A stretch of 58,161 bases of DNA from Gammaproteobacteria bacterium (lineage in GTDB: Bacteria > Pseudomonadota > Gammaproteobacteria > Eutrophobiales > Eutrophobiaceae): positions 1 through 58,161 of the forward strand of contig JAJRTU010000113.1 in assembly GCA_024278135.1 (NCBI GenBank), given 5' to 3'. Both the position numbers and the translations under genes were made by a program. Positions 1 through 21,463 of the stretch are shown piece by piece. Below the pieces are notes generated by a model, which had not been told where the DNA came from, ran no database searches, and was given only the letters and a program-made list of their open reading frames with translations. The first letter of the stretch is position 1, and each line of letters opens with the position of its first letter.

Positions 1-3000
1 CGACGGGGCCAGGTTTTGTAAGGTATTACTAACTCTCCTAATGTCAGAATAATTAAAGTCCGCCTCACGTTTATTAGCCAATTGCTGAGATAAGGCAGCT
101 TGTAATGAATATTGCCATTTATCCAGTTTCTCATTTTCAAGTAGAACGTTTATTTCTTGCGTGGTCGACTCATCGGCGATTATTGCGAGTTTATTTATCA
201 TTAGCTGAATCAATTCAGATGCACGCATACTCGCTGTCACGGTGCCAACACGCTCTCCCCGATCATAAGGACGATAATATGTTCCCAATAAACATATTAG
301 TAGACTCAATGCTGTACCTGGCAATTTGTCCATCAATGATAATTGATCAATCCTGTAAGAAAGGAAACCCATCAGGTATTTAATGCGTGTTGCCCTGCCA
401 TTACAATACTCTATCAGTACCTGCCTGTAATCTGATGGAAAAAGAATAAAAGCGACTCCCAGCCAATGAGTCCGCTGAGCCACATTCATACTGCGTAACA
501 TAAGCTTCTTTTTGACTAATTTCTGAAACTGCTTAGGATCCGCATGTTGTAAGGCTGCCTTAAGAAGATAGTCGAGATATTCCAGTTGCTTGCTAGTACA
601 ACGTGCAGGGAAACCAGCCAGTAATTGAATGCTTGAATGCCGTGCAATTCTTTTATAATCCTCATCAAAGGCAAGTGAATAAATACCGGAGATATGTTCC
701 TTACCTGCACGTATCGCCATCAAACTATATTGAATAAATATTTCTGCGACCAGTTCGGGTTTTTCTTTTACCAGTTCCTTGTACCAGGCTGGTTCTTCTC
801 CTATATCATCAGCGAAATAAAAAGCTAAGGCCTTGCGAATCTTGTCGTCAGACAGTTGCAATATTTTCCTGTTATCGTCCTTGCTGACTTCTTCCAGGCC
901 TGCCCTGAAAGGGAAAGACAGGGGATAAATTTCACTATTATTCTGTATATTAAGCTGGAATATACTCTGTACTGCGGGGATATCCTTCCGCTCAAGACAG
1001 TTTTTGAAACCTGTCAATATCGATTCAACCAGGCTTTCATCATCGAAATAATTATTTAAACGCTTGTGAGGATTTTCACCTTCAAAATCTATAAAATAGC
1101 CAAAGTAGGCCATGCCCAAATTATGAAGAATACCTGAGTCCGCCGTACCCGCACGGATATCATTAATATTTTTCTTTATAAATTGAATATATTCCTGTTT
1201 TTGTTGTTGTTCTTTCGCTCTTCTTGCCTCTCGCTTTCTATTAAACTCCACTATTCCTAGGCTAATCGGTGGGTTTAGCATTTCATCCAACCAGTTATCC
1301 AGTTTAGGAATTTCTTGTACAGCCTGTTTTAAGATATCCAAAGATATATTTTGATTATCAGTTTCTAAATTACATACACGAAAGGCTTCGCCCAAAAAAT
1401 ATTTACTAACGGGTTCATTAGTTGATTGTTTGGCTTTATCTAAACACCATAAACCATAATCTATAGGTAACTTTGCATCATATAAGCGCTCCATCACTTT
1501 ACGCATGCACCAGTTAAAATTATCACTTTCTGCACAGTGTTTTACGTGTAATGCTATAATTGCTTTTTGACAATCTGGATGTAAACCAATCCAATCACGA
1601 ATTCGCTTAAGTTCATGTTCGTTGTCTATTGATACAAAGCCATATTCATCAAGACCCAGGCCAAGCCAGTCAGATAATCTTTTCTGGGTAACGGTTTCTC
1701 CATAATATTCCAGTCCAGTCGCAAGAAGCCTGCCGACCATTGAGCGAAAGGGTGTCTCATTGATTGTGACTGCCAGTTTTTCATGACGTAATACCAGATC
1801 ATCAAGCAACTGAAACAATTCTCCTTCCGAGGATTGTTCTTCTAAATGATACGACCAAAATTTCTGATATTTACCAATATAGTTGGCCTTTTTAGGCGTA
1901 TGTAAATAATCAAAAACCTCGGCTGGCTTAACTATAGCGGGATAAAGTTCTACTAACAGCTCTCCTGATAAGGCATCGTCCTGATCGGAAATGATATTGT
2001 TATTAATATCCAGGAGAAGTTGCATCAGTTTATTATTTTCATTCGGTTTGCCAGCAACAAGATGAATAAAGACATGGAGCGCCTGCCTGCGGATACCAGA
2101 CCATCGGCTTGAATCACGAACAATTTCCATCAAATAGTCAGTTAATTCCGTTAATCGTTCTCCATGCATCATCGCATCCAGAACACAATCAACGATGGCC
2201 TGTTGTGCATCACTGCGATCAGGAGACATCAGAATTTCTTTAAATATGGGTTCTATCTCAATGGTGCAGAGCGCCCCAAAAGGATGCCCTACCCAGTTAC
2301 CAGATCTAAAATAAGGATAACGCCTGGCTTCTTCCCTGAGTGCATCCAGGATCTTACGCTTATCCTCGACACTAAATAATTTAACATCACCGTACAGGAT
2401 AAGCCCTAATGGGTCCCGCTTTATCAATATGGCGCGTTCTGTTTCACACAGGGTCACCAGCCAGGCGAACAGGCCTCGCAGTGCAGTGACGGCGACGCCA
2501 TCTGTTCCGGTCATAAGAGCAAGTATGCGTCCTATGGGTAAACCATTTTCCATGATCTGTTTGTTCAGGTAATAAGCCGCTAGATATTCAGCGACCGTTC
2601 TATGGACATAAGTAGTACACTCACTATTTGTACTAAAGAGTTTTGTTTTCGTGACGGCATGTAGTAATACAGGTTCTTCGTATTCCAGATTATTTATAGA
2701 AAGGTATTCCTTTGTTGCAGCGAAGGCACTCAATGATAAACCTGGCTTATCGGACAGCAATAAAAGTGCGCAAAGAAAGCCGGCTGCTTCAAGTTGCTTT
2801 TCAATCGTCAGAGAACGATCACGCTGCGTGTCGCTATGTTCTGGATTATGCTCGATGACTAATATTCTGCGGCAGGCAAGCTCAAAAGTTTCCCGGCGGG
2901 AACCCGGCCACTGGCCACTGTCCGTTATGGCGGAAACCATCATATCCAGTATTTGAGGATTTTTGATTATGTCAAAAAGTCCCCGAGCTTTTGCTTCTTT

Positions 3001-3516
3001 TATAAATTCTAAGGGTATTTTAACTTCATCCGGATAATTCTTAACCAGGATTTCGTTGATATCGTCCTCGGTCAGCTCGTCCAGATGCAGCTCTTGAATT
3101 GTATTATTATCAGCCGCAACCATTTGTAACTGTTCCCTGTCACTACTGCCCAGCCAATCTGCTTCCCGGCAGGACAAACGGAACCAGGGACGACCTAGTT
3201 TTTCCAGACATCTTCGTATAGCGTCAAATGGACCTCTGGCATCCTGTGTTCCGGCCCTGACTTCATCCAGACCATCTATGAATAATATTTTATCCTGCCA
3301 TTCCGCATTACGCTCAAGAGTGATTAAGTTACGGGCAGTTATATAAACTGAACCTTGTTGCTGTTTGCTTTCTTGTTCAAAGGCTTTAGTTTTTCCCATA
3401 CCCGGTTCACCCAACAATACATAGGCAGGGCTATCTCTATAACGGTCCAGAGGAAGAGAGACCTGTTTCTGATCTTTAATAATAGTCGTACAGGTTCGTG
3501 GTACCAGGAATGTCAC
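1..3516 (-). CDS. Large STAND/NACHT-type P-loop NTPase (Avs/NLR-like), 3' end beyond window
   Basis: Not in the ORF track because there is no stop inside the window. Hand-translated segments from GTG at 3516: TFLVPRTC...YVLLGEPGMGKT (Walker A), ILFIDGLDEVRAG (Walker B), FRLSCREADW, KNPQILDMM, WPGSRRETFELAC, YVHRTVAEYLAA, RDPLGLILYGD. The same frame is open at the window edge (...KREADFNYSDIRRVSNTLQNLAPS). GTG overlaps the TGA of the upstream gene. Confidence 0.85.
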   Translation of the reverse strand, partial: MTFLVPRTCTTIIKDQKQVSLPLDRYRDSPAYVLLGEPGMGKTKAFEQESKQQQGSVYITARNLITLERNAEWQDKILFIDGLDEVRAGTQDARGPFDAIRRCLEKLGRPWFRLSCREADWLGSSDREQLQMVAADNNTIQELHLDELTEDDINEILVKNYPDEVKIPLEFIKEAKARGLFDIIKNPQILDMMVSAITDSGQWPGSRRETFELACRRILVIEHNPEHSDTQRDRSLTIEKQLEAAGFLCALLLLSDKPGLSLSAFAATKEYLSINNLEYEEPVLLHAVTKTKLFSTNSECTTYVHRTVAEYLAAYYLNKQIMENGLPIGRILALMTGTDGVAVTALRGLFAWLVTLCETERAILIKRDPLGLILYGDVKLFSVEDKRKILDALREEARRYPYFRSGNWVGHPFGALCTIEIEPIFKEILMSPDRSDAQQAIVDCVLDAMMHGERLTELTDYLMEIVRDSSRWSGIRRQALHVFIHLVAGKPNENNKLMQLLLDINNNIISDQDDALSGELLVELYPAIVKPAEVFDYLHTPKKANYIGKYQKFWSYHLEEQSSEGELFQLLDDLVLRHEKLAVTINETPFRSMVGRLLATGLEYYGETVTQKRLSDWLGLGLDEYGFVSIDNEHELKRIRDWIGLHPDCQKAIIALHVKHCAESDNFNWCMRKVMERLYDAKLPIDYGLWCLDKAKQSTNEPVSKYFLGEAFRVCNLETDNQNISLDILKQAVQEIPKLDNWLDEMLNPPISLGIVEFNRKREARRAKEQQQKQEYIQFIKKNINDIRAGTADSGILHNLGMAYFGYFIDFEGENPHKRLNNYFDDESLVESILTGFKNCLERKDIPAVQSIFQLNIQNNSEIYPLSFPFRAGLEEVSKDDNRKILQLSDDKIRKALAFYFADDIGEEPAWYKELVKEKPELVAEIFIQYSLMAIRAGKEHISGIYSLAFDEDYKRIARHSSIQLLAGFPARCTSKQLEYLDYLLKAALQHADPKQFQKLVKKKLMLRSMNVAQRTHWLGVAFILFPSDYRQVLIEYCNGRATRIKYLMGFLSYRIDQLSLMDKLPGTALSLLICLLGTYYRPYDRGERVGTVTASMRASELIQLMINKLAIIADESTTQEINVLLENEKLDKWQYSLQAALSQQLANKREADFNYSDIRRVSNTLQNLAPS

Positions 3517-4775
3517 TGTTCACCAAACCAGTCATCCGGGCCAGAGGAGAGAAACAGCTCCAGTGGTTCACCCTGCCCACCCACCAATATCGTACGCTGC
3601 GGTTTGAAACGCTCGTTAAATTTTTCCAGACCACGGCGGCTACCATCTCCCGTAGCACTTTTCACTTCAATCGCGACCCGCATACTGCCCTTTTCAATAA
3701 TAAAATCCACTTCATTATTACCATCCCGCCAGTAATAAAGCCTGACATCAGGAATTCCCCTGTTATATAAATGTGCACCCACCGCGCTCTCTACCAGGTG
3801 TCCCCAGAAAGTTCGGTCTGCCCTGGCCTGTTCATAGGTATAACCTGACATAGCAGTCATCAGTGCCGTATTCAATACATTAAGCTTCGGTGGCGATGCC
3901 CGTCGGCGATGCTGTTGATTGGCAAACTTTTGCAAGCCGGTAAGTAGCCCGGCATTGGTCAACAGGTTTATATAACCGGCGAGCGTCGTTTCATTACCGG
4001 CATTGTCCAGGCGCCCTTTCATTTTATTCAATGAAAGTTCCCGTCCCGAATAATGACAAGCGAGCTCAAACAGCTGTTTGAGTAGTGCAGGTTTATCTAC
4101 ACGAGTCATCATAAGAATGTCTTTTTCAATATTCGGCTCGATAAGCGATGAACGTACATAATCCGCCCAACGACTTTGTTCAGTAACATATTCGGCCGCA
4201 CCTGGATAACCACCGAAATATAGATAGCCCGGTAGATCAAGATTAAAAGCCTCACTCATTTCTAGAAATGACCAATGGGTATTGCGTATTAGCTCAAATC
4301 TACCCGCAAGACTTTCAGTCAGACCCTGCTGCATCAACAATGGAGCCGAACCCAGTAATACGACATGTAATGGTCTATTCAATGCCCGGTCCGCATCCCA
4401 TAGTCCTTTCACCACCTCTGACCATTGCGGGATCTTCTGTATTTCATCCAGAACCAGTATAAAGCCACGCTCAAGTTCAGGATTGTCAGCCGCTTTACGC
4501 GCTTTTCCCCACTGCATCGTTATCCATTCGATATCAGGTTTTCTAATCCCGGCTACTGTGTAGGTGACCTGATCAGTCATGGACGTGTAGGGAGACGGTA
4601 CAGTAAGCTCATCCAGGGCTAGATAACTATATTCGGCAGGTGAACGCTCACGTTGCAGGATCTTCCGTACGAGGGTAGTTTTTCCCGTTTGACGGGGACC
4701 GGCTACTACAATTAGTCGGCTTACGGGTTCATCTAATCGAGCAATTAATGTTTGAGCATGTTCACGTATATACAT
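3513..4775 (-). CDS. AAA+ ATPase, AAA_14 + DUF4143 family, with C-terminal PD-(D/E)XK-like motif
   Basis: Walker A GPRQTGKT, Walker B LVLDEIQ, LGSA...ESLAGRF, GGYP, and C-terminal YYWRDGNNEVDFII...AIEVKS. Confidence 0.9.
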   Translation of the reverse strand: MYIREHAQTLIARLDEPVSRLIVVAGPRQTGKTTLVRKILQRERSPAEYSYLALDELTVPSPYTSMTDQVTYTVAGIRKPDIEWITMQWGKARKAADNPELERGFILVLDEIQKIPQWSEVVKGLWDADRALNRPLHVVLLGSAPLLMQQGLTESLAGRFELIRNTHWSFLEMSEAFNLDLPGYLYFGGYPGAAEYVTEQSRWADYVRSSLIEPNIEKDILMMTRVDKPALLKQLFELACHYSGRELSLNKMKGRLDNAGNETTLAGYINLLTNAGLLTGLQKFANQQHRRRASPPKLNVLNTALMTAMSGYTYEQARADRTFWGHLVESAVGAHLYNRGIPDVRLYYWRDGNNEVDFIIEKGSMRVAIEVKSATGDGSRRGLEKFNERFKPQRTILVGGQGEPLELFLSSGPDDWFGEQ

Positions 4776-4784
4776 GGCGCATGT

Positions 4785-4824
4785 ATATTACATCATTGAG
4801 TAAAATTACTCAATGATGTAATAT
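4785..4824. promoter_or_regulatory. Perfect inverted repeat (19-bp arms, 2-bp spacer) containing a sigma70-like promoter on both strands; candidate operator
   Basis: ATATTACATCATTGAGTAA-AA-TTACTCAATGATGTAATAT. It reads TTGAGT-N17-TAATAT on each strand and ends 9 nt before the ATG at 4775. Confidence 0.7.
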
Positions 4825-4878: not shown

Positions 4879-6873
4879 TTAAGGACTGTACCAAATCGCC
4901 GAAGACCATGCCCTTTCCTGAATGATGGGATCGACATTGTCAAACGGCTTTTTACCCTCACGCAGGGCTTCATAGCTGCTCCAGCGGCAGCCGGGGTTTT
5001 CCAGTACACGGGCATAGTAAAAGGCACGTTGGGCGGGTTCAAAATCCGGATCCTGCCACATGCCTTTCAGCTCTATTGCCCCTTTATCGGCACTGACACT
5101 GCAATCCGCCATATTCACTTCTGCGCCATTATCGGGACAACGATGACTGTCTGTATCGGGCAGCAATCCATCTGAACAGACAACATCGAAGGTTTGTTCT
5201 TTGCTTTCTCCTGCCTCCAGCCAGCCTTTTATGATTTGCACACGCTGTAGTTTGATGCCATCACCCGCCTTCATCGCCCAGACCATGAATCTCGGCACGT
5301 GACCGGCTTCAGTGGGAGGTAAGTCACCACCCATGGGTACACCGTGCCGGTAGGCAAGTTCAAGCAAGTTACTTTGTTCATCCAAATTTTCCGGATAGTC
5401 CCAACCGGCAAAGAAACGAAGAATGATACGAGTACCGCTGGTACCGAATGTTTCTTTACGCTTCAGCGCGGCAAAGATACTGTCCCGGGTATTGTCTTCC
5501 GCCCAGACACCGGCCAGACCACCGGAACCTTTCATTCTTTGCGGGGTAAAGACTTTTATTTCCGGCAGGGCCGCTCTGGCAGCAGGTGAACCGTCCTCTA
5601 CGCCATGATGTCCAAGGTAATTGCTTTCATCAGTGGCACCGGGCGTACCATTGTGTGTATCAGTACTGCCTATTACACCGAACTTATAGGGGTTGATACC
5701 GGTGCTCGCTTCCGCCTCGAGTCCATATTTCAAGGTATTGCGTATGTAATTATTGGCCTGGACACAGCCCTCCGGTCGACCCTGTGCATCACAAAGAACG
5801 GTGCAGTCTGACAAGCCCGTATCAGGACTCCCGGCACAGACCGGTCGGCGTTCCAGTTTTTCAAAATTACAGAATTCATCCGCCGTACCGAAACCGGTTT
5901 GACATTCCGAATCACCCTTGGCCTGTATAATCTCTACCAGGGGTTCCAGTTCACTGCGCAACCTGGCCAGTTCCAGCGAGAGCATGGAAGCATCTATCGC
6001 TGGAAACTGCTGACCATTACTCTGATTGGAGTTATGCGGAATGGAAACGAGTTCACAGGGTGCTTTGCAGTCATCCCGCAGTTGTTGCCAGAGTTTCGCC
6101 GGTGTATTCGCTTCAAAATAGCTGATCGGCAGCGGCAACACGTGTTGATTGCGAAATACGATGTTTCTATGCAAGTTGTTGCCCCGCGTATTACCTGTCC
6201 ATTCATAGGCAATAAATGTGGTGAAATCTCCAGGTTGATTGAAGTCATCGGCAATATCCTGCAACTCCTGCCAAATGCTGTGGGCACGTTCCAGACAATC
6301 ACGAGCCTCGCTTGAACACAGTTCTTTCTCTCGTTCAGGATCGGGAGAGAGTACGTCCCTGATGATCAGGGCCTTGAATATATATCGGATCAACGCCGCC
6401 TGTTTATCTTCATTACGTATGGCCCGGCACAATGCCTGATCATACTGCGCCGTGCTGTTATCCAGACACAGGGCAAGCTCTCCCAGGTATTCTCCATGTT
6501 CCGTGACTGCTGCAAAATCCAGCGGCTGCTTCAGTTTCAGTGTCCTGCCACCTGATAAAGTGACCTCTTCTCCCCGGGCGAAACGATAGGCCTCTCTCGG
6601 TCCTGCCGGGTTGAAATTAATATAGCTGTCCAGGGAGTAGGCTGTGTGAACATGGAGATCACCAAAATAGGGATGGCCTCCCGGCCCGGCAGTGGTTTTT
6701 TTTATCTCTTGCTGTACAGCATGTATTTCCTGCAGGTCTTGATTTGTACCGGGGATCTGAGCTTCCTCTTGCGTACAGGCACTGAAAACAAATCCTGAAA
6801 GAACAAGAAGGTATTTGATCAACTGCATTCCCGTATGCACCGGTATGAGGCCATTAGATGCCGTAACAGACAT
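4879..6873 (-). CDS. DUF3604 family protein (PHP-like metallohydrolase), predicted lipoprotein
   Basis: YFGDLHVHT, AAVTEH, YEWT, NLHRNIVFR, PHNSN, GSTDTHN, FYYARVLENP, QERAWSSAIWY; lipobox FVFSAC; TAATG overlap with the upstream paralog. Confidence 0.85.
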   Translation of the reverse strand: MSVTASNGLIPVHTGMQLIKYLLVLSGFVFSACTQEEAQIPGTNQDLQEIHAVQQEIKKTTAGPGGHPYFGDLHVHTAYSLDSYINFNPAGPREAYRFARGEEVTLSGGRTLKLKQPLDFAAVTEHGEYLGELALCLDNSTAQYDQALCRAIRNEDKQAALIRYIFKALIIRDVLSPDPEREKELCSSEARDCLERAHSIWQELQDIADDFNQPGDFTTFIAYEWTGNTRGNNLHRNIVFRNQHVLPLPISYFEANTPAKLWQQLRDDCKAPCELVSIPHNSNQSNGQQFPAIDASMLSLELARLRSELEPLVEIIQAKGDSECQTGFGTADEFCNFEKLERRPVCAGSPDTGLSDCTVLCDAQGRPEGCVQANNYIRNTLKYGLEAEASTGINPYKFGVIGSTDTHNGTPGATDESNYLGHHGVEDGSPAARAALPEIKVFTPQRMKGSGGLAGVWAEDNTRDSIFAALKRKETFGTSGTRIILRFFAGWDYPENLDEQSNLLELAYRHGVPMGGDLPPTEAGHVPRFMVWAMKAGDGIKLQRVQIIKGWLEAGESKEQTFDVVCSDGLLPDTDSHRCPDNGAEVNMADCSVSADKGAIELKGMWQDPDFEPAQRAFYYARVLENPGCRWSSYEALREGKKPFDNVDPIIQERAWSSAIWYSP

Positions 6874-8825
6874 TAATTGGGACTGTACCAGATGGGTGAT
6901 GACCAGGCGCGTTCCTGTATGATGGCGGGGGCATCTACAGGTGGTTCACGGCCCAGTCGTAATGCGTCATAGGTACTCCAGCGACAACCCGGGTTTTCAA
7001 GCACCCGCGCGTAATAAAATGCACCTTGTCCGGGATCGAAATCCGGATCTTCCCACAGGCCCTTCAGTTCTGTCGCGCCCCTGTCTCCTGTGACACTGCA
7101 ATCTTTCAAACTAACACCGGCACCATTGTCCGGGCAGCGCCTGCTGAGCGGGTTCGGTGTCAATCCATCCGAACACAGGACATCGTACACCCGTTCCCGG
7201 CTTTCTCCGTCCTCCCGCCAGCCTTTGATCACCTGCACCCGCTGCAGCTTGCGACCATCAACACCTTTTGCTGCCCACAGTAAAAAGCGTGGTGGCCCGT
7301 CATTATGATAGACAGGTAAATCGCCACCCATCGGCACACCCTTGTCGTAGCCAATAGCAGCCAGCTCCGTGCCCTGTTGCAGGGTCTCCGGAAAATCCCA
7401 GCCGGCAAAGAAGCGAAGCAGAATTCGGGTGCCACTGGTGGCAAAGGTTTCCCGGCGCTGCAGCGCAGCGAAGATGCTGTCGCGGGTGTTCTGCTCGGCC
7501 CAGACACCGGCCAGGGCACCGGGATTTTTGGGCAGCTGCTTGAAACCCGTCTTCAGCGCCAATTTCAGGCGATCATTGGCATCGGCATCCAGATAACCAA
7601 AATTGCCTTTGTAGTTGTCTTCCGCGGTATTGCCAGGATTGGCATTGTGGGTATCCGTACTGCCCAGCACGCCGAACTTATAGGGATTTGCTCCCGTTTT
7701 CTCTTCAAATTCCAGACCGATCTTCAGTGCGTTGCGAGTATAGTTCCTGGCCCAGACACAACCGTCCGGCCGGCCCTCGCTGTCACAGGCCGGGGCACAG
7801 ACCAGGGTGGAACCGGGCGGCGCTTTATCGGGACAAATCGGTCGCAGATCGTATTTTTCAAATTGACATAATTCATCTTCTGTCCCCAGGCCGAAACGGC
7901 ATTCAGACTCGCCTTTGAACTGCATGATTTCAACCAGGGGCTCATGGGCAGCTCGATAGCTGGCCTGTTCAGCGCTGAAGGGAGAACCATCGGGATTAAC
8001 ACCGGCAAATCTCAGCCCCTTGCTCTGGTTGGAATTATGGGAAATAGTCAGTACCTCACAAGGAGGCAGGCATTCTTCATCCAGTTTGCCCCAGAGCGCT
8101 TCTACCGTGGGCACTTCGATCATACTCCAGGGCGTTTTTGCCACGTTGTTGTTCCGAAAGATCACATTCCGATGACGGTTACCACCCTGCTCGCCTGTCC
8201 ATTCGTAGGCGATAAAAGTGGTGAACTCACCCGGCAGGTAAAACTCATCCGCAATTTCCTGGATCTCCTGCCAGCGGGTTCGGGAGGCGTTAATACAGTC
8301 TTCACCCTGATCTCCGCATATGGGCAATCGCTCAGGCCTGTCCGCCTTGAACACCTTCAGCAGGACATTGACAAAAGTACGATGTTCCAGGGCCGGATCC
8401 TGTTGTTCATTTCTCATATCCCTGCACATGTCCGTCGCATAGGCGGCACTATGGGGATCGGCACAAATCAGCGATTCCCCCAGAAACTCCGCATGCTCGG
8501 TAACGGCGGCAAAGTCCAGCGGCAGCGCCAGCTTCCTTGGATGCCGGTAAAAGTCTATTTCACCGCCGCGGGCGAAAATATAAGCATCACGGGGAGTAGT
8601 ACGATTAAAAATGATGTAGGCATCCAGTGAATAAGACGTATGCACATGCAAATCACCAAAGTACGGATTACGCGAAAGCATTGCCGGGGGGGCCGAACTA
8701 CTTTGCCCCTCGACGGTCTGCCTTGTCTTTACGCCCGATTCGGCTTTACTGTTTGCATCTCCCGGTGTATCGGAACAGGCTGCCAACAGGGTCAGACTCG
8801 TCAATAACATAATATTTTTCAGCAT
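6873..8825 (-). CDS. DUF3604 family protein, second tandem paralog, predicted lipoprotein
   Basis: Same motifs (GDLHVHT, AVTEH, EWT, HRNVIFR, HNSN, STDTHN, QERAWSSPIWY); lipobox LLAAC. Start placed at ATG 8825 (MLKNIMLL), just after the HupE stop. Confidence 0.85.
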   Translation of the reverse strand: MLKNIMLLTSLTLLAACSDTPGDANSKAESGVKTRQTVEGQSSSAPPAMLSRNPYFGDLHVHTSYSLDAYIIFNRTTPRDAYIFARGGEIDFYRHPRKLALPLDFAAVTEHAEFLGESLICADPHSAAYATDMCRDMRNEQQDPALEHRTFVNVLLKVFKADRPERLPICGDQGEDCINASRTRWQEIQEIADEFYLPGEFTTFIAYEWTGEQGGNRHRNVIFRNNNVAKTPWSMIEVPTVEALWGKLDEECLPPCEVLTISHNSNQSKGLRFAGVNPDGSPFSAEQASYRAAHEPLVEIMQFKGESECRFGLGTEDELCQFEKYDLRPICPDKAPPGSTLVCAPACDSEGRPDGCVWARNYTRNALKIGLEFEEKTGANPYKFGVLGSTDTHNANPGNTAEDNYKGNFGYLDADANDRLKLALKTGFKQLPKNPGALAGVWAEQNTRDSIFAALQRRETFATSGTRILLRFFAGWDFPETLQQGTELAAIGYDKGVPMGGDLPVYHNDGPPRFLLWAAKGVDGRKLQRVQVIKGWREDGESRERVYDVLCSDGLTPNPLSRRCPDNGAGVSLKDCSVTGDRGATELKGLWEDPDFDPGQGAFYYARVLENPGCRWSTYDALRLGREPPVDAPAIIQERAWSSPIWYSPN

Positions 8826-8835
8826 AACATTCACC

Positions 8836-9840
8836 CTAATAAAATCCGCTGACACGATCAAACAACCAGAAAGCGGCAATACTGCCTATCGCATAACTGC
8901 TTGCCAGTTCTATCTTGTCAAACCAGTCTCGTATGATCCGACGTAATAACTGCAACACGGCGATGGCAAAAATGACAAATAATACCTGTCCTGTTTCCAC
9001 ACCAAGGTTGAACATAAGCAATGCCAGAGGGATATCATCCTCAGGCAGGCCAATCTCTGACAATGCACCCGCGAACCCCAGACCGTGAACCAGACCGAAT
9101 ACCGCTGCGACCAGCCAGGGCAGTCGCCTGCTCAGGTTATGCTTATTTTCCCGCACCAGCTCACAGGCCAGAAATACAATACTCAGGGCAATAACGGCTT
9201 CCACCGGGGCAGAGGGCACATGAACATATCCAAGTATGGCCGCTATCAGGCTGATGCTGTGGGCCAAAGTGAAAGCGGTAATGGTTTTAATAACGTTCCA
9301 GAAACGTTGTATGAGCAGCAACAAACCCAGAATAAAAAGCAGATGATCGGCACCCTTAAGGATATGCTCTACACCCAGTTTGAAATAATAGGGGGCGATA
9401 TTTTTTATCGGCTCAGTGACAGAGGGAAATATAAAGACAGGATTTTTGTTGTCCAGCACGGACATGTGTACAGTACCGTCCCGGCTTTGGAATCTGAGCA
9501 AAACATCACTGATGGTATTGCTTAAACCGGCTATCGTAACTTCCTTGCCACTGAGTTCAGTCGCTCCGCAATCCATTACCCATTTCTCGTACATGAGACC
9601 CTGTAGTTGCCGGCCTGTATTCGCTCCGCCGGTACGACAGCTCTCAGGAAAAACCACCTGTATATTCAAAGCACGCTGTGCGCGTATGGGGCGTGTCCAG
9701 TTGATCTCCAGCAGACCGGCACTGCCTTCCTTTATTTCAAGGTAGGCGGGGCGTGACTCGTGAGCAAGGGCGGGAATGCTGCCCGTCAAAAGGAGCAGAC
9801 ACAGCAAGCTTGTTCGCCACAGAGCAAAACCCTCATTCAT
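8836..9840 (-). CDS. HupE/UreJ-family membrane protein with N-terminal periplasmic domain
   Basis: Signal peptide ending ALA-HESRP; LGVEHILKGADHLLF, AFTLAHSISL, VEAVIALSI, FGLVHGLGFAGAL, FNLGVETGQ. Confidence 0.88.
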   Translation of the reverse strand: MNEGFALWRTSLLCLLLLTGSIPALAHESRPAYLEIKEGSAGLLEINWTRPIRAQRALNIQVVFPESCRTGGANTGRQLQGLMYEKWVMDCGATELSGKEVTIAGLSNTISDVLLRFQSRDGTVHMSVLDNKNPVFIFPSVTEPIKNIAPYYFKLGVEHILKGADHLLFILGLLLLIQRFWNVIKTITAFTLAHSISLIAAILGYVHVPSAPVEAVIALSIVFLACELVRENKHNLSRRLPWLVAAVFGLVHGLGFAGALSEIGLPEDDIPLALLMFNLGVETGQVLFVIFAIAVLQLLRRIIRDWFDKIELASSYAIGSIAAFWLFDRVSGFY

Positions 9841-9842
9841 GA

Positions 9843-10700
9843 TCAGTTTGAGTTTTCATCAGCTTGATAAGCAACATCCACCTGGTAATGAGTACGCATT
9901 TCCTGATAGGTTTTTTCTTTTAGCGCCATGAGTTGCTCATTTATAACATCGTCCAGTATCCGCGTCCTGATGTCTGCAAAATCGGGAACAGTTGACTTTG
10001 TGACATGTTCAATACGCAGCAGATGCGCACCGTATTCAGACCATACCGGTCCTTGCCATTGCTCCGTTTTCATGGTGAACAGATCCCGTGCAAATTCGAC
10101 CCCAAATATTTGTGCGACCCGTTGCTGACTTCGCTCCCTGTAATCGTATTGCAGTATAAAATTATCTCCCCTTTCCGGTGCACGCAATGGCGTCGGAGCA
10201 ACTGACAGCATTTCAAGTTGCTCTTTGGCATCATCGAATACGGAGGCACCACGTTTCTCTTTACTGAAATAAATATGCGTAAAGCTTCGCTTCTCCGGTA
10301 CGCGGTATTGTTCCCTGTGCAATTTGAAATATTCGAGCAGTACCGCCTCGTCAGGTCTTTGCAATTGTGACAGGTTGGCGGAGAGAAATTCCATTTTTTG
10401 TATCAGTCGTCGCCGCACGATAGTGTCATTTTCGTCCAGACCCAGTCGCTTCGCCTCTCTCAACAATACTTCCTGATGGATGAGTGATTCCACCAGTTCG
10501 TCCAGTACTGCGCTGTCAGGTGTACTGCCATTTTGTCTTGTCCATTGTTGGCGTAATTTATTGACCGCTTCCGCAGTAATTTGGATATCATTATCATCTT
10601 TGAGAAAAGCATCTTTTGAGGTCAGCCCGTAGAGAGAAAACAACAAGGCGCCAATAAACATAAAATGGACGAAAGGATCACCTAAGCACTTCCGGAACAT
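9843..10700 (-). CDS. PpiC/parvulin-type peptidyl-prolyl isomerase-like protein, membrane anchored
   Basis: DPFVHFMFIGALLF anchor, EVLLREAKRLGLDENDTIVRRRLIQKMEF, SFTHIYFS, WQGPVWSEYGAHL. Start at ATG 10700 after a GAGGAG RBS. Confidence 0.85.
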   Translation of the reverse strand: MFRKCLGDPFVHFMFIGALLFSLYGLTSKDAFLKDDNDIQITAEAVNKLRQQWTRQNGSTPDSAVLDELVESLIHQEVLLREAKRLGLDENDTIVRRRLIQKMEFLSANLSQLQRPDEAVLLEYFKLHREQYRVPEKRSFTHIYFSKEKRGASVFDDAKEQLEMLSVAPTPLRAPERGDNFILQYDYRERSQQRVAQIFGVEFARDLFTMKTEQWQGPVWSEYGAHLLRIEHVTKSTVPDFADIRTRILDDVINEQLMALKEKTYQEMRTHYQVDVAYQADENSN

Positions 10701-10820
10701 CGCTAACTGCTCCTCATCGGACTGACAATGGCATGACAGTTCCTGAGCATGCTGCACTCGCTGGAATCGCCGGGCATTCAGAACGCGCTTTCCCTGTATT
10801 TATCATTATTGACAGACGAT

Positions 10821-12332
10821 TCAATCCAGTTGATAACCGGCCTCAAAGTCACTGAAGCGCTGTTCCAGGTTCCACTGCCAGGTGGCTTTTTCACTGCTTG
10901 CCAGAAATTTTCCACATTGCCGATCCGGCGTATCCCTGTCTGGTGAAGATGAAGCGCACTGCCCGACAAGTTGACCGCTGCCAGTGGATACGAACAAACT
11001 GTTACCGGCAAGAAAACTGTAGGCCAACGCATTGCGGGAGTAATATTTCAGATCCGCATAACTTAAATTATATGTGTCTACGGCGCGCTGATATTCGCGA
11101 GTCAGATCAATACGCGATACGCCTTCATCGTCCGTGGAAAATGCCATGGGAACCTTGTATTTACGGTAGGCATTGAATGGGTGCTCATTATCCTTGATAC
11201 CCAGTATAACTGCATTACTGCTGAGGTTGATTTCCACCATGATGTCCTGCTTTGCCATGTGCTACATCAGTGTCCGGGCGTTTTTGTCGTAAAATATGTC
11301 GATGCCATGGCCGATACGTCGGGCTCCGGCTACTTCTATGGCTGCACGAATATGCCAGCCCAGATCTTCCGGCGGTACCAGACCCATGACAATTTCGCCG
11401 GCATGCAGGGTGATGCCACGTTTCGCGGAAGGGAAAAACTCCGCCAGTCCACCAATCATTTTCATCTGCCAGTGATAATCGCGCAAGGACACCGGATGGT
11501 CTTCCGGCGCGACAAAATTAAGACCAACGTAACGCGGGTCTTTTTCTATCAGCCTGAATGCCAGCAGAGTTTGCGCCAGCACCTGTTCTCGCGGAAATAC
11601 CCGTATCACCTGTGCCAGATAACGAACAGGAACATCACAACCTGAATCGGCCTGCGGGCTGTCACAGGCGAGTTGCTCACGCCATTGCTGTTCTATACGA
11701 TCAAGTCTAGCCATAGTGCCGTCAACCAGTTGTTCAATATCAGGATTCTTTGCCACGACAGACAAGGGCACAGTCAAGGCAAAATCTTTGTTCCCTGCTG
11801 CCAGGCGGCGTGCTTTTGCCATGCCGTAAGACTGCATCAATTCCAGGTAAACGATATTCTGCCTGGCGGCCCGGGTACTCACTTCTGCCAGCATCTGTCC
11901 CTCATGTCCCAGACTTGCTTCAAAAAAACGTCTGAAAGTTGAAAAGAACTGATCATGTCCCGAGACAGATCGCTGTGCATAGTTACGCACAGACAGGGCA
12001 TCAATGATGGGGTTGACGATGGCGCTGTTGTATTGAATATCACGCAAGGCCGGTTTATCGGCCTCAGCATTGCAGGGTGGTGGCGCTATCCTGTAAGTTT
12101 CGAGATCGATACATTTCCCGTCCTCTGCCGCCCAGGCGATAAAATTTTCCGCATATATCGCCCCATCCAGATGATTATGCAGATCCCCCCCCTTGGGGAA
12201 GCTGTAAAGAAAATGTCTCAACAATGGGGGGTCGTGGCGAATTTCATTAAAGTAGGCTTCAGTTTCCTTTTCTCCTGCCATAGCAATGAAAGGCAACAGC
12301 AAAGCAAAAAGGACAGCGGATAATAAGGTCAT
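10821..12332 (-). pseudogene. Secreted-type adenosine deaminase interrupted by an in-frame TAG at 11262-11264
   Basis: The two track ORFs are in one frame: ...ARTLM*HMAKQDIMVEINLSSN. The N-part has PKGGDLHNHLDG, LHAGE and RIGHG; the C-part has STDDEG. Hydrophobic signal-like N-terminus. Could be a sequencing error. Confidence 0.8.
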
Positions 12333-13715: not shown

Positions 13716-16208
13716 TCAGTACATTTCCTTCGTGGATTTCGTATTGCAATCATTGTTCACTGAACTTTGGAGCAGTTCATCAAACGGTAATGGTTTACCT
13801 ATACCATAGCCCTGAGCATAATTAACCCCGATCTCTTTCAGCATACCCTTTATGACATCATCTTCGACAAATTCGGCAATGGTCTGCATCCCCATTACCT
13901 GGCCAATCTCGTTAATTGATTTCACCATGGCACGATCAATGGGATCTTCAACGATGTCCTTGACAAATATCCCGTCGATCTTCAGATAATCCACCGGCAG
14001 ATTTTTCAGATACCCAAACGACGAAAGACCACTGCCGAAGTCATCCAGTGCAAACCGACAGCCCAGTTCCTTCAAGGTGATAATGAATTTGATTGCAGTA
14101 CCCAGGTTCGATATTGCCGCGGTTTCGGTAATTTCAAAACATACTTTCTCGCCAATAATTCCGGATGCCTCCAGTTTTGAACGAATAAAGTCCAGAAAGG
14201 CCAGATTGGCCAATGACTGCCCGGAGAGATTGATGGAGATAAAACAAATCTGCTTTTGAAACTCCGGGTTCTCCGCCAGCAAGGTAAAGGCCTTTTCAAT
14301 GACCCAGCGATCGAGTCGTTCTATAAGATTATAGCGCTCGGCGGCGGGCAAAAAGGCCCCCGGCGGAATAATCTCTCCTTGCTCATCCTCCATTCTGATG
14401 AGCAATTCGTAATGTTTATCGTCACGCTTGTCAAGCGGTTCAATGACTTGTGCATACAGACAAAAACGATCGTCTTCAAGGGCTTGATGAATGCGGGATA
14501 CCCATTGCATCTCACCGTGACGCCGAGTCAGTGCTTCATCTTCAGGGTGATAGACATGAATGCGATTACGCCCCAGGTCCTTGGCCATGTAACAGGCAGC
14601 ATCGGCCTGCTTCAACAACTCTGTCAAGCTGGGAATACTCTCGGTGATGGCCACCAGACCAATACTTACACCCACCCTGAAAGACTGTCCTTGCCAGGAA
14701 AATTGATAGTCCTGTACAACCGTTTGCAATGACGTTGCAACACGTTGGGCATGCTCCAGCGTACAGTGCTCCATCAATACGCCGAATTCATCCCCCCCCA
14801 GACGGGCCAGAGTATCGCGTTGTCTTACTACAGCCTGCAGTACCGATCCCAGTTGGCGCAGCATTTCATCCCCCGCCATATGACCACAGGTATCATTCAC
14901 CACCTTGAACTGATCCAGATCAAGAAAGCAGAGTGCATGATCTGTATTGTCCCGTTTTATCGTGGCAAGCAACCTCTCAGCCCGACGCTCAAACTCTCGA
15001 CGATTGATCAAGCCGGTCAGGGCATCATGGGAAACCTGATAGCTGAGCTGTTTCTCCGCCAGCTTGCGCTCTGTGATATCAATAGTAATACCCAACAAGC
15101 GATCCACCTTGCCATCGGTACCATTGATAGGGACAAAGTTAGCACGGAATTCGAGTCCCTCTGTGCTGCGAAACTCGAAATCCGCAAACTCACCTGACAA
15201 TGCGGAGTCCATCAGTCTGGAAACACTCTCCCGATCGTCGTCACAGACAAAGCTCAGATAAGCAAGACCGAGAATGGCGGATTCATCCTCTGCTTTAAGT
15301 ATCTGCAAGCCGGTACGATTCATCGATATAAACCTGCCTTTTGAGTCAATCTGATGAATGCAGTAGGGTGAGGATTCGACCAGAGTACGATATTTTTCTT
15401 CACTCTCCCGTAAGGCTTTTTCTGATTTCCTGCGTTCAGTAATATCACGACCAATAAAAACTATGCAGGCTGTATCACCAAAATGAATAATGCTGGACGA
15501 AACATCGACAAGAATAAGATCGCCGTTTTTCACTCGAAATTCTATTTCAAAATTACTGACCGCTCCATCTTTTTCCAGCAAGGCACGTAACTCATCCCGC
15601 TGATTGATGTCAGAGTACACATCTATTTCTGCAATGGATTTTCCAATCAGATCTTCCCGATGATAGCCGGTAACTGTTTCAAAATGGTGGTTGATATCAA
15701 GTATTCGGCCCTCTTTCAAAGTGCTGATCCATATGGCATCCCTGACCTCGTTAAATACACTGGTGAATTTTTCCTCAGACTTATGCATCGACATTTCCAG
15801 TTCGTTAATATGCTGTCTGTTATATTCATGGAGTGCGCTGTGTACCGCGCTCAATAAATTATCCGGCTTGCCAGCCTTCTCTACATAGGCAAAGGCGCCG
15901 AGGTTCAGAGCGTCTTTAGCACTTTCATAGGTGCCATAGCCGGTATGAATGACGATCTGGATCTTGTTGTCCTGGGCCTGCAGTTTTTCCAGCAGTTCAA
16001 TCCCGCTGCCGTTGGTAAGACGCAGATCGATCACCGCCACCTTGAATTGTTTTTCATGAACCTGTTGCATCACCTCCGAAATAGTCGCACAGGCGATGAC
16101 TGAGAAACCCTCATATTCCAGAATATCCTGCAAGGTCTGTAACTGTGAGCAATCATCGTCGACCAGCAACAAATTCGAAATCCGATCATGTTCATAGACA
16201 GACTGCAT
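13716..16208 (-). CDS. REC-PAS-PAS-GGDEF-EAL c-di-GMP signalling protein
   Basis: LLVDDD...VIDLRL receiver, two PAS ending DITERR/K, RQRDTLARLGGDEF (RxxD I-site present), ELLIR, EITE, DDFGSG. Confidence 0.93.
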   Translation of the reverse strand: MQSVYEHDRISNLLLVDDDCSQLQTLQDILEYEGFSVIACATISEVMQQVHEKQFKVAVIDLRLTNGSGIELLEKLQAQDNKIQIVIHTGYGTYESAKDALNLGAFAYVEKAGKPDNLLSAVHSALHEYNRQHINELEMSMHKSEEKFTSVFNEVRDAIWISTLKEGRILDINHHFETVTGYHREDLIGKSIAEIDVYSDINQRDELRALLEKDGAVSNFEIEFRVKNGDLILVDVSSSIIHFGDTACIVFIGRDITERRKSEKALRESEEKYRTLVESSPYCIHQIDSKGRFISMNRTGLQILKAEDESAILGLAYLSFVCDDDRESVSRLMDSALSGEFADFEFRSTEGLEFRANFVPINGTDGKVDRLLGITIDITERKLAEKQLSYQVSHDALTGLINRREFERRAERLLATIKRDNTDHALCFLDLDQFKVVNDTCGHMAGDEMLRQLGSVLQAVVRQRDTLARLGGDEFGVLMEHCTLEHAQRVATSLQTVVQDYQFSWQGQSFRVGVSIGLVAITESIPSLTELLKQADAACYMAKDLGRNRIHVYHPEDEALTRRHGEMQWVSRIHQALEDDRFCLYAQVIEPLDKRDDKHYELLIRMEDEQGEIIPPGAFLPAAERYNLIERLDRWVIEKAFTLLAENPEFQKQICFISINLSGQSLANLAFLDFIRSKLEASGIIGEKVCFEITETAAISNLGTAIKFIITLKELGCRFALDDFGSGLSSFGYLKNLPVDYLKIDGIFVKDIVEDPIDRAMVKSINEIGQVMGMQTIAEFVEDDVIKGMLKEIGVNYAQGYGIGKPLPFDELLQSSVNNDCNTKSTKEMY

Positions 16209-16214
16209 TTCAGG

Positions 16215-17000
16215 TCAATCCTGCGAAGTGGGCTTTCGGATATGATTCGAGACTCGCTGACGACTCAGCTTTTGCAGCATTTCCAGGATATAATCCATGT
16301 CCAGCGGTTTCCTGACTATTGTGTAGGCGGTTCGTTTTACCGCCTCTCTGGCAATTTTGGCGAACTCCCCTTCCATGCCGCTGATCATGATGGCAATAGA
16401 GCGGGGGCTTTTCTTTTTAATCGCAAGATAGAGATCCAGTCCGTTCATGGCTGATAATTCAACATCGATAAAAACCAGATCGTAGTGTATCTGCTCCGCC
16501 AGTTCGAGGGCATCATACGGTGACGCCACCAACGTCACCTTGTAGCCTTCATTTTTCAGGTTTGTTTGCAGAGATTCCGTCGTCTGTTCATCATCTGTCA
16601 CAATCAGGATGCCGGTATCTTTGGCTTCATCAATCAGCCTGATCACTTTTTCTATATTCAGCGGTTTGGGCAAAAAGGCGATGGCACCTTCGTTCAGGGC
16701 CCCCTCCTTCAACTCTTCAATACTGCAGGCACTCATCATAATGACTCTGACCCCTTCATGATGACGGCGTATGTGTAGGAAGGCCTCAATACCATCCATA
16801 CCCGGCATACGGACATCCATGAGGATGACATCGAATTTCTGTGATTCACACAGGGCCACCGCTTCTTCACCGGAGGCCGCCGTGTCAACTTCATAGGATT
16901 CATCACGCAGAATATCGGCCAGGGTGAGACGCATGTTTATCTCATCATCAACAATGAGGATGCGGTGTGCTTTACTTGTATGAATGTCAAATGACACCAA
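16215..17000 (-). CDS. Tandem double-receiver response regulator without output domain
   Basis: ILIVDDE...LMDVRMPGMDG...KP and ILIVTDDE...FIDVELSAMNG...KP. Confidence 0.9.
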   Translation of the reverse strand: MVSFDIHTSKAHRILIVDDEINMRLTLADILRDESYEVDTAASGEEAVALCESQKFDVILMDVRMPGMDGIEAFLHIRRHHEGVRVIMMSACSIEELKEGALNEGAIAFLPKPLNIEKVIRLIDEAKDTGILIVTDDEQTTESLQTNLKNEGYKVTLVASPYDALELAEQIHYDLVFIDVELSAMNGLDLYLAIKKKSPRSIAIMISGMEGEFAKIAREAVKRTAYTIVRKPLDMDYILEMLQKLSRQRVSNHIRKPTSQD

Positions 17001-17014
17001 ATATTTCCCTATAC

Positions 17015-20000
17015 TTATGTGCTGCTTGAATTTGTGCGCTGAGGTAGTTTAATCCGAAACATGGCGCCCCGTCCATCTTGTTCAACATATTCCAGTGTTC
17101 CTCCATTTTTTTCAATTATCTGCCTGCTGATCGTCAGACCAAGCCCGGTACCCTTGGCCTTGGTCGTGAACAGAGGTTCAAACAATCGGGTCTGCTGTTC
17201 AGCATCGATACCCGCGCCGGTATCCTGCACCGTAATAATATCCATACCATCGGCACGCTGCCCCCGGATAAAAATATCACCCTCAGCTTCAATAGATTGC
17301 AAAGCATTAACAAGCAGGTTGTCCAGCACCTGACGCAGTTGTGCGGGATCAACATTGACTACAAAAGGCTCTTCTTCAAATTGCAGATGACAGCGGATGG
17401 TATCGGCGGGCTTTACCCGTTCTATTCCCTCGGCCACCACGCTGCCCAGATTAACTTTCTGTTTGACCGGTTCTTTCGCACGCGTCATCTCCAGCAGATT
17501 GCTGATAATCCGGTCAGACACATCAATTTCCTGATCAATAATATCCAGATATTTGGCTATTTTCGGATTATCTCCAATCAGGCGTCGATTCATGTAATAG
17601 GCGGCATTACGTACAGCGCCGAGCGGATTTCGCAATTCGTGGGCGATGCTGGCGGCCACCTGACCTACCGCAGCCAGCCGTGTCTGAGTGACCAGTTTCT
17701 CTTTGAGCCTGTCCAGCTCCTTTTGCACCTGCTCTGTTTCTCCGCGCTTTTGCTCCACCAGTTGCTGATGCGCAATATTGACCTGTCGCTCGGCCTCGAA
17801 GCGCTGCAGTTCCGCTGCGGTTCGAATGGCAAACAACTGCAGAATGGCCATCATCGCTTCCGTCTGTTCTATTTCACCGGAATCCAGCACCACCAGCAGG
17901 CCGATGGATTCACCGTCCGGATTTCTCAGCGGAGAAGCCGCATAGCTGTCAACACCCATTTTCACCAGCAGCAGATCATCTGGAAATTTCGCCTGTACAT
18001 CTCTCGGATGGATGCAGGGCCCGCCGCTGATAATATTTTTACAGGGAGTCCCTTCAAGATCATAGGAAAAATTGTCGACATTCTCCCCCCGGGCCGAAAC
18101 TGCAATAGTCTGAATACGTGATTTGTCTTCACCCGCCAACAAACCGATGAAGGCATACTCCACATCAAAACCGATGGCAACATGCCGGACCAGCGATTGC
18201 AGAAACTCCTCACCGGTTTCCCCCATGACACCTTCCGCGACGTAGCGCATCAGTTTTTCCAGACGCTTGTGTTCGGTGATGTCCTGCAGGGTGCCGCCAA
18301 ACCGAACGACATTGTTTTTTTCATCTCGATAGACCTGGCCAATTGACTTCATTACCCATTCCCTGCCCGAATCATTGATAATTCTTACCACGACACTGTA
18401 AGGCTTGTCACCGTTTTCCATTGCCTCATTGAACGCATTCTGCCACCTCTCCACATCATCCGGATGCACCATCCGGATAAATGCATCAAAGCCGGGACTG
18501 AAACTGTACGGATCCTTGTCGAACAGTCGGTAAGCCTCTTCCGACCACTCCAGCTTCTGTGAAATGAGACTCATTTCCCAACTGCCCAGCCGGGCAATCT
18601 TCTGTGATTCAATCAGCTGTGATTCTCTTTTTGCAACGGTCTTTTCCGCCTGTTTACGTTCGGTGATGTCATTAACCACGCCCCAGGAACGTGTCAATTT
18701 TCCATTCTCGACAGTGCCGATCTCTGTATTTAAAAAGTATTTCTCAGTGCCGTCAGACAATATTTCACATGACTCCGTTGCTTTCAGTACATAGTTATTG
18801 GCGACATAGGCTTCGATCATTTCCAGTAATGCCGGTGTTTTCTTCTTTAATGCGACAGAGTGAGTCCCGATAACATCCTCCGCTTGACGGTATCCATACA
18901 TCCTCGCATATTGATCATTGCACTCACCCACTGTGGCTCTTTTTGTCAGCAATTCAACCTGCTCATCCACTGGCAGATCAATGGGGACACCGGGTTCAAT
19001 TTTGTACCAGCGTATGCCCTGAAAACTGTTCTCCACCAGAGAACGATAAAGATTCTCGCTTTCCCGCAGGGCATCCTCCATCTGTTTTCGTTCAGTAATA
19101 TCATTGATTAATGCCACCATGCACTCTTCACCGTCGACTTCAACCAGAGAAGCGGATATAAAAACCGGAAAAATTTTTCCATCCATACTCCGCAATCTGG
19201 TTTCAAAGTTTGCGACCTGTCCGTTTTCCCTGAGTTTTTTTATCAGTGTCATTCTGTCCTTCAGATTCACCCAGAAATCCATTGTCGTCATGCTGGAGAC
19301 ATCCTTCATCGGCAGATTGACAAGTTTTGCCAGCCCCGGATTGACATAGACCAACTGGCCATCCCGCAGACGGCTGATACCTACACCCTGAAGGGTGGCA
19401 TCAAATATCTTTGACAGCTTTTCCTCGCTTTCCCTCAGCTCCTTTTCCGCCCATTTTCGCTCGGTGATATCCCGCCATACACAATGGAGTATTTTTTTTC
19501 CCCGAACCGGAACGGCGGTCAGCAGTACTTCCGCCGGAAAGATTTCACCGTTTTTTCGTAAATGCATCCATTCAAAACGGTGACTGCCCTGTTCCAGGGC
19601 AATCGACATCATTTCATCCGCTTTTTCCAACGAACTTCTTCCGTCAACCTGTTTTGGCGGAGATAACTGATATGGCTGACAATTCAGAAATTCGTTCTTG
19701 CTTGCATAACACAGCATCTCGACAGCGGCCTGATTACAGTCTACGAACTTTCCGTCGTCAATAATGAGAATCGCATCGGCCGATTTCTCAAAAAGCACTC
19801 TGTACTTTTCCTCGCTTTCGCCCAGGGCCTGCTCCGCCCGTTTACGCTCGGTGGTGTCATTCACGACACCCCATGTTTGAATCAGTTTGCCGTTCTCAAC
19901 CGTGCCGCGTGCGGTGTTCAGAAAATATTTGACTGAACCATCAGAAAGAACTTCGCGTGACTCCGTGTCCTCCAGCATGTAACCACCCTTCACAAAGGAT

Positions 20001-21310: not shown

Positions 21311-21463
21311 GGGTTCCTTATAGCTGCCTATTTCCCGAACTCCAGGAGTATTAGTAGACAAAATATAGCGAATTTGTGGTGACAACGATAGTTTTTCCAT
21401 GGATAGAGGCTGGAAACTCCTGCCGCGCTCCAGAAAAAAGAAGACTTATCGGAACAGAAACAA

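What the first reader, a model, noticed from the sequence alone, without database searches (positions are those of the whole stretch)
1..4775. Translationally coupled DUF4143 ATPase + giant STAND NTPase: candidate two-gene defence module, half of it absent from the ORF track
Seen: a frame of more than 1170 codons with NACHT/STAND Walker motifs begins at a GTG overlapping the TGA of the AAA_14-DUF4143 gene. The NTPase sits at the very N-terminus with no N-terminal effector, and the DNA is visibly AT-richer than the rest of the window. Established: large STAND ATPases (Avs, bacterial NACHT) act as phage pattern sensors, and DUF4143 proteins end in a PD-(D/E)XK-like fold. Inference: this is a horizontally acquired sensor/nuclease pair with any STAND effector at the C-terminus, just outside the window. 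I do not recognise this pairing as a named system.
Basis: partly seen in the sequence, partly recalled or inferred. Interest (0 to 1): 0.72.

Follow-up and report, generated by a model that had tools for sequence, protein, structure and literature searches.

The report
Phage sensor coupled to self-regulating ATPase
A known type of bacterial virus-sensing protein (Erebus/Avs10-like, with its own nuclease-type tail) is here locked behind a second ATPase-nuclease gene that likely controls the shared promoter; the pair has co-evolved across many bacteria, which points to a likely two-gene version of a defence so far described as one gene.

Summary
The STAND frame is open for 1172 codons, overlaps the DUF4143 stop (GTGA) and is cut only by the contig end; contig C143 overlaps by 141 bases and adds 183 residues ending in a PD-(D/E)xK nuclease fold (about 1355 aa). 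Both parts are catalogued: the STAND matches NCBIfam EruA (Erebus/Avs10, a capsid sensor) end to end, and the ATPase is PADLOC candidate PDC-S01. The pairing is nonetheless real: 66 of 76 assessable homologous loci carry the ATPase directly upstream. One ATPase clade, marked by a ~20-residue insert, had the STAND downstream in 11 of 11 unbiased cases (0 of 24 without the insert), and the two trees co-diverge (Mantel r 0.82). A palindromic operator (4785-4824) follows the ATPase, not the STAND, and changes with its winged-helix recognition helix, suggesting autoregulation. Canonical EruA lacks the partner, and the STAND lost it about eight times. I found no paper on the pair; this scan noted it before on other genomes. 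Verdict: new variant of a known kind.

The parts
1..3516 (-). First 1172 codons of an EruA/Avs10-like STAND (NACHT-type) NTPase: N-terminal NBD (Walker A G36-T43, Walker B F79-E85) followed by a long sensor region. It continues on contig G000:C143 (stop at C143:30949-30951) into a PD-(D/E)xK nuclease domain; about 1355 aa in all.
   Evidence: NF058535 772.5 bits, profile 1-1143; 242.7 bits, profile 1099-1317
3513..3516 (-). GTGA overlap of the ATPase stop and the STAND start (translational-coupling signature)
   Evidence: 35 of 66 paired metagenome loci overlap by 4 or 1 bases, 57 of 66 lie within -20..+10
3513..4775 (-). PDC-S01-type AAA_14 ATPase - winged helix - DUF4143 PD-(D/E)xK nuclease, 420 aa; Walker A/B and E329, E355, D357, E370, K372 intact
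   Evidence: (PDLC04791 528 bits)
4536..4607 (-). Insert of about 20 residues (about 57-80) in the ATPase domain, specific to the STAND-paired clade; low confidence (pLDDT <50 at 59-75) in the monomer model
3954..3992 (-). Predicted recognition helix (residues 262-274) of the ATPase's winged-helix region
   Evidence: assignment as recognition helix is inferred from position and recalled wHTH anatomy
4785..4824 (.). Perfect inverted repeat (19-base arms, 2-base spacer) 9 bases upstream of the ATPase start; core TGAGTAA-NN-TTACTCA at 4797-4812; putative operator
   Evidence: (only such site in the 3.7-Mb genome)

Best explanation
This is a two-gene operon in which an Erebus/Avs10-like sensor-nuclease is translated directly after a PDC-S01 ATPase-winged-helix-nuclease that likely binds the palindromic operator and so likely controls expression of both genes. 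On infection the STAND protein likely binds the phage major capsid protein (inferred from Avs10), likely oligomerises with ATP and would activate its own C-terminal PD-(D/E)xK nuclease to degrade DNA and abort infection. The ATPase is an accessory, probably regulatory partner and possibly a second nuclease effector; it is not the sensor's only killing domain. Shown: anatomy, intact motifs, linkage, co-divergence, and the operator tracking the ATPase. Inferred: operator binding, capsid sensing, nuclease activity, phage defence.
For: End-to-end EruA match. The 20 full-length relatives scanned score 890-1090 bits around the 1000-bit cut-off; the six closest score 980-1031. Avs10 (Erebus/Hypnos/bNACHT64) senses major capsid proteins (PMC13581612, passages). 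The C-terminal model matches restriction-endonuclease folds (Can2 Z 8.2, rmsd 2.7, 114 aligned; BamHI Z 8.1, rmsd 4.5, 148 aligned), and E, D, E, K are invariant in 49 of 49 paired and 9 of 9 unpaired full-length STANDs. Linkage: 66 of 76 assessable metagenome loci, and 7 of 9 class-survey genomes with a visible N-terminus. Converse: 11 of 11 insert-bearing ATPases found by ATPase-first genome searches have the STAND downstream, 0 of 24 insert-less ones. Paired ATPases form one clade (SH-aLRT 100, insert columns removed). Trees co-diverge: Mantel r 0.82, 0 of 2000 permutations as high; 18 of 24 strong splits shared. Operator dyad (3 mismatches or fewer) in 62 of 67 paired loci, 11 of 20 stand-alone ATPases and 0 of 13 partner-less STANDs; unique in the genome. 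Among stand-alone ATPases the dyad is present in 16 of 19 with the D-[A/V]-G-N-x-T-T-L-A helix and in 0 of 5 with a changed helix; two of those five carry TGATAG/CTATCA repeats instead.
Against: No activity was measured. The whole protein could not be scored against the EruA cut-off (pieces give 772 and 243 bits with a 45-position overlap), and it is only 31% identical over the first ~400 residues and 23% over the distal sensor to the best-scoring EruA found (L085), so the ligand may differ. The STAND lacks the partner in 10 of 76 loci (about 8 changes on the tree), and 4 of those partner-less genes are full length. Helix-operator covariation rests on 5 divergent proteins and is confounded by overall divergence; L032 has a changed helix (EAKH-TVTLAD) yet keeps the operator. 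The metagenome set was picked by an alignment of close homologues and holds near-duplicates. Four of the 24 insert-less ATPases have under 340 bases of downstream DNA.
Confidence: 0.55

Rival explanations
1. Promoter capture without protein cross-talk: an EruA-like gene once landed behind a PDC-S01 gene and has travelled with it since. The two act as independent defences sharing a transcript, and the insert is an incidental clade marker.
For: The operator predates the pairing (present in stand-alone ATPases). Both proteins keep full catalytic sets. The partner was lost repeatedly. Basal EruA homologues (L085, L086) and four plasmid homologues show no such partner within the flank read. Linked genes co-diverge whether or not they interact.
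Against: No insert-bearing ATPase was found without the STAND (0 of 11). Tight overlap is kept across loci of 37-67% GC. Partner-less STANDs are more often broken: 3 of 7 against 4 of 49 (Fisher p 0.035; small, and assembly errors are possible).
Confidence: 0.25
2. Paired-NLR-like unit: the sensor-less ATPase-nuclease co-assembles with, or is switched on by, the capsid-bound STAND (helper), or holds it off until infection (guard or antitoxin), using the clade-specific insert as the contact.
For: The ATPase folds like the archaeal ATPases PAB2304 and SSO1545 (Z 16.8 and 16.3), with NLR resistosomes and AVAST5 lower in the list. It has no large sensor. The insert is confined to the paired clade and has low confidence in the monomer model. 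Coupling suits fixed stoichiometry. Partner-less STANDs are enriched for breaks.
Against: The STAND has its own intact nuclease, and intact partner-less copies exist (L022, L023, L033, L068). The insert is poorly conserved in sequence. EhAvs10 was cloned as a family representative and responded to capsid proteins in E. coli, with no partner gene mentioned in the passages read (PMC13581612).
Confidence: 0.17
3. The operon is not anti-phage but a selfish or anti-plasmid nuclease module.
For: It sits among ordinary metabolic and transport genes with no integrase, tRNA or other defence gene seen nearby. PDC candidates were untested when described, and validation is reported as pending for most (10.1101/2024.01.29.577857 and PMC12988326, passages).
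Against: Full-length homology to an experimentally validated anti-phage family.
Confidence: 0.03

Closest known systems
Erebus / EruA (NCBIfam NF058535), grouped as Avs10 (Erebus/Hypnos/bNACHT64) in PMC13581612
   Same: N-terminal NACHT with no N-terminal effector, a long sensor region and a C-terminal nuclease-fold domain; the profile is covered from position 1 to 1317 of 1318; similar length.
   Different: Score at or just under the equivalog cut-off. It belongs to a subclade (V-x-R-T-C N-terminus) that mostly follows a PDC-S01 gene, whereas the best-scoring EruA found (L085, 1318 bits) and L086 stand alone. In the passages read Avs10 is handled as a single gene.
PDC-S01 (PADLOC PDLC04791; Pfam AAA_14 + DUF4143)
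   Same: 528 bits over residues 1-417; ATPase plus PD-(D/E)xK nuclease; shares the TGAGTAA operator with close stand-alone relatives.
   Different: PADLOC treats it as a single-gene candidate. This clade has a ~20-residue insert and was found upstream of an EruA-like gene in every unbiased case (11 of 11).
Hypnos / HyoA (NF058534)
   Same: Related NACHT sensor-nuclease
   Different: Much weaker match (108 and 42 bits against a 1200 cut-off)
Plant paired NLRs (sensor/helper, such as RRS1/RPS4) and autorepressed defence operons (CapW, BrxR) - recalled, not tested
   Same: Two linked NTPase immune genes; a DNA-binding regulator heading a toxic defence gene
   Different: No interaction or repression is shown here; the putative regulator is itself an ATPase-nuclease, not a WYL protein

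Membership tests
EruA / Erebus / Avs10 | Full-length match to NF058535 | tested here: met
   profile 1-1143 and 1099-1317
EruA / Erebus / Avs10 | Score of at least 1000 bits (equivalog cut-off) | tested here: inconclusive
   gene split over two contigs: 772.5 and 242.7 bits, overlapping; six closest full-length relatives 980-1031
EruA / Erebus / Avs10 | N-terminal NACHT with intact Walker A/B | tested here: met
   (weak Pfam NACHT, E 0.002)
EruA / Erebus / Avs10 | C-terminal PD-(D/E)xK-type nuclease domain (NucS/SfsA-like per the review PMC13276650) | tested here: met
   (restriction-endonuclease folds fill the list, best Z about 8)
EruA / Erebus / Avs10 | Activation by phage major capsid protein and anti-phage activity | not testable with these tools
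   inferred from PMC13581612 only
EruA / Erebus / Avs10 | Single-gene architecture | tested here: not met
   coupled to PDC-S01 here and in 66 of 76 homologous loci; lowers 'typical Erebus', not 'works like Erebus'
PDC-S01 | PADLOC PDC-S01 profile match; ATPase + PD-(D/E)xK | tested here: met
PDC-S01 | Stand-alone defence activity | not testable with these tools
   PDCs were untested candidates when described
HyoA / Hypnos | NF058534 score near the 1200 cut-off | tested here: not met
   108 and 42 bits
Paired NLR (sensor-helper) | Physical and functional interaction of the two NTPases | tested here: inconclusive
   only indirect genomic signs (insert, co-divergence); needs pull-down and epistasis tests

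The most novel reading that the evidence does not exclude
A bacterial paired-NLR unit with built-in gene control: the capsid-sensing Avs10-like STAND recruits or releases a sensor-less ATPase-nuclease through its clade-specific insert, and the same ATPase doubles as the operon's autorepressor, so that sensing both triggers DNA cutting and de-represses the operon. This would also give the very common PDC-S01 family a function as self-regulating DNA-binding nucleases.
Probability: 0.17. Interest if true: 0.78.

Novelty: new variant of a known kind. Interest (0 to 1): 0.45.

Why it matters
Avs10 proteins have been studied as single genes. A widespread subclade with a co-evolved, translationally coupled ATPase-nuclease partner would show how toxic NLR-like sensors are regulated or helped in bacteria. 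It also offers a concrete handle on PDC-S01, reported as the fourth most common predicted defence gene in prokaryotes, with validation pending for most PDCs (PMC12988326, passages): a defined operator, a candidate recognition helix, and a partner with a known class of trigger make it directly testable.

Tried and rejected
Internal stops or a pseudogene: rejected. Effector-less STAND that needs DUF4143 as its nuclease: rejected as a requirement, since the STAND's own motif is invariant. Operator as a host regulon site: rejected, it is unique in the genome. Operator as a feature of the pair: rejected, it follows the ATPase. The complex prediction of STAND residues 1-575 with the ATPase returned 'no answer' (score 0.00); it is not evidence either way, and the distal sensor and nuclease were not included. 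The single-protein pattern scan of genome contigs gave only 2 marginal hits. Pfam at E 0.01 and PADLOC 2.0 have no model for the STAND. The sequence search of solved structures found no relative. Viral contigs gave 2 loci, one paired (L144) and one not (L145); the operator pattern was not found there. No clean empty site, flanking repeat, tRNA or integrase was found; same-genus genomes keep some flanking genes in another order. Literature searches returned no description of the pair in the listings and passages I read. The original Erebus paper is not held, two large supplements of PMC13581612 could not be read, and DefenseFinder was not available; any of these could mention the neighbour gene.

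Full report
Observation. The window is the first 58,161 bases of contig C35 of a 3.7-Mb draft genome. Two minus-strand genes fill 1-4775: a 420-aa AAA_14-DUF4143 protein (3513-4775) and a frame of 1172 codons without a stop (1-3516) whose GTG overlaps the first gene's TGA. The last 141 bases of contig C143 equal window 1-141. The frame continues there for 183 more residues to a stop, giving about 1355 aa, the length of the homologues. The STAND part has 41.5% GC against 50.4% genome-wide, and 2 of 878 windows of 3.5 kb are as low. None of 5 same-genus genomes (84-98% complete) gave an EruA match, and none had a close ATPase homologue (best 24-27% identity in one). Horizontal gain is likely, but no empty site, repeat, tRNA or integrase was found.

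What the genes are. The large protein matches NCBIfam NF058535, 'NACHT domain-containing antiphage protein EruA', at 772.5 bits over profile 1-1143, and the C143 piece at 242.7 bits over 1099-1317. The cut-off is 1000; 20 full-length relatives scored 890-1090 and the six closest 980-1031. HyoA is far weaker. That EruA names Erebus is my reading of the label. PMC13581612 (passages and supplement list read) groups Erebus/Hypnos/bNACHT64 as Avs10 and reports activation by major capsid proteins; a review (PMC13276650, passages) describes the original Pseudomonas proteins as NACHT proteins named for NucS and SfsA. The C-terminal model (pLDDT 90.6) matches restriction-endonuclease folds (Can2 Z 8.2, BamHI Z 8.1, PaqCI Z 8.0). 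These Z values are middling, but the class fills the list, and E-D-E-K are invariant in 58 of 58 full-length homologues. The small protein matches PADLOC PDC-S01 (528 bits), a single-gene candidate from 10.1101/2024.01.29.577857 (passages) and PMC12988326 (passages). Its model (pLDDT 91.4) is closest to the archaeal ATPases PAB2304 and SSO1545 (Z 16.8 and 16.3). Both catalytic sets are conserved in paired and stand-alone copies.

Is the pairing real? I dropped one duplicate (L016). 66 of the 78 have the ATPase directly upstream on the same strand at 46-70% identity, and 2 of the 12 without it have under 40 bases upstream, so 66 of 76. 57 of 66 gaps lie within -20..+10 bases and 35 are 4- or 1-base overlaps. 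In 400 genomes of the class, 9 other genomes had a strong EruA match with the N-terminus visible and 7 were paired; the two exceptions (L085, 1318 bits; L086) branch outside the paired clade. Four plasmid homologues at 26-33% identity also lack the partner. Starting from the ATPase instead: the class search gave 27 other matches, 7 with the STAND downstream; the phylum search gave 11, 4 with it. All 11 paired ones carry an insert after the second strand, and none of the 24 measurable unpaired ones does (3 broken or partial genes not measured; 4 have under 340 bases downstream). Over all loci in the alignment the segment is 23-37 residues in 67 of 68 paired proteins and 10-11 in 17 of 17 unpaired. 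With the insert columns removed, paired ATPases are one clade (SH-aLRT 100). Patristic distances of the two genes correlate (r 0.82, 67 pairs, 0 of 2000 permutations as high); 18 of 24 strong ATPase splits recur in the STAND tree and 21 of 24 are compatible with it. This shows long joint inheritance, not interaction. The dependence is asymmetric: the STAND lost the partner several times (8 changes). Four partner-less copies are intact, though breaks are commoner among them (3 of 7 against 4 of 49; p 0.035).

Operator. Earlier notes of this scan on other genomes mentioned a conserved palindrome, so I tested it. Window 4785-4824 is a perfect 19-base-arm inverted repeat 9 bases before the ATPase start. 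Its core TGAGTAA-NN-TTACTCA occurs once in the genome, and within 3 mismatches in 62 of 67 paired loci, 11 of 20 stand-alone ATPases and 0 of 13 partner-less STANDs (shuffles 1.5% or less). It therefore belongs to the ATPase gene and predates the pairing. Among stand-alone ATPases with upstream DNA, 16 of 19 with the D-[A/V]-G-N-x-T-T-L-A helix have the dyad and 0 of 5 with a changed helix do; L127 and L128 carry TGATAG/CTATCA repeats at the same place. This is what autoregulation by the winged helix predicts, but n is small, overall divergence confounds it, and L032 is an exception. A sigma-70 scan found nothing above chance.

Mechanism. Most likely (0.55) the ATPase represses its own promoter and, through translational coupling, sets the level of a toxic Avs10-like protein that binds capsid protein, oligomerises and cuts DNA with its own nuclease; the ATPase's nuclease may add a second effector. 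Operator binding, ligand and activity are inferred. Rivals are independent co-transcribed defences (0.25), a helper or guard pair that interacts through the insert (0.17), and a non-phage role (0.03).

Novelty. Both parts are catalogued. The dedicated pairing, the clade-specific insert and the helix-operator covariation did not appear in nine literature searches, within the limit that the original Erebus paper and two large supplements were not readable. This scan had noted the same pair on at least five other genomes; those notes are leads, not evidence, and their claim of many phyla was not tested here (my named homologues and genome surveys lie within one phylum). Verdict: new variant of a known kind, interest 0.45.

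Noticed in passing
window 10821-12332 (-): Two in-frame ORFs (356 aa and 145 aa) separated by one stop codon look like the halves of an adenosine-deaminase-like gene (HxH, HAGE, RIGHG, TDD motifs recalled; no Pfam hit at 1e-5 for the first half). Possibly a pseudogene or an assembly error.
   Followed up: partly
window 4879-10757 (-): Tandem DUF3604 genes with HupE/UreJ and PpiC-type genes; same-genus genomes hold 3-6 DUF3604 copies each and keep the PPIase-HupE-DUF3604 order.
   Followed up: partly
L113-L125, L136-L142: Stand-alone PDC-S01 genes carry the operator as tandem dyads of up to six half-sites (L120) directly before the start, while most paired loci have one central dyad with weaker outer half-sites.
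   Followed up: partly
L126, L127, L128, L130, L132: More distant PDC-S01 subfamilies have their own repeated upstream motifs (CTAG-, TGATAG-, TTGAAC-based), suggesting family-wide autoregulation with changing specificity.
   Followed up: partly
L047, L050, L063: Paired loci in which the ATPase frame is broken while the STAND frame stays open; could be sequencing errors or early partner loss.
   Followed up: no
L113, L115, L117 downstream: Some stand-alone PDC-S01 genes are followed by other defence-like genes: an ABC-type ATPase, a type I restriction subunit-like gene and a second AAA_14-like ATPase (judged by eye from N-termini).
   Followed up: no
window 13716-27245 (-): Cluster of large PAS/histidine-kinase/GGDEF-EAL signalling genes; ordinary.
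   Followed up: no
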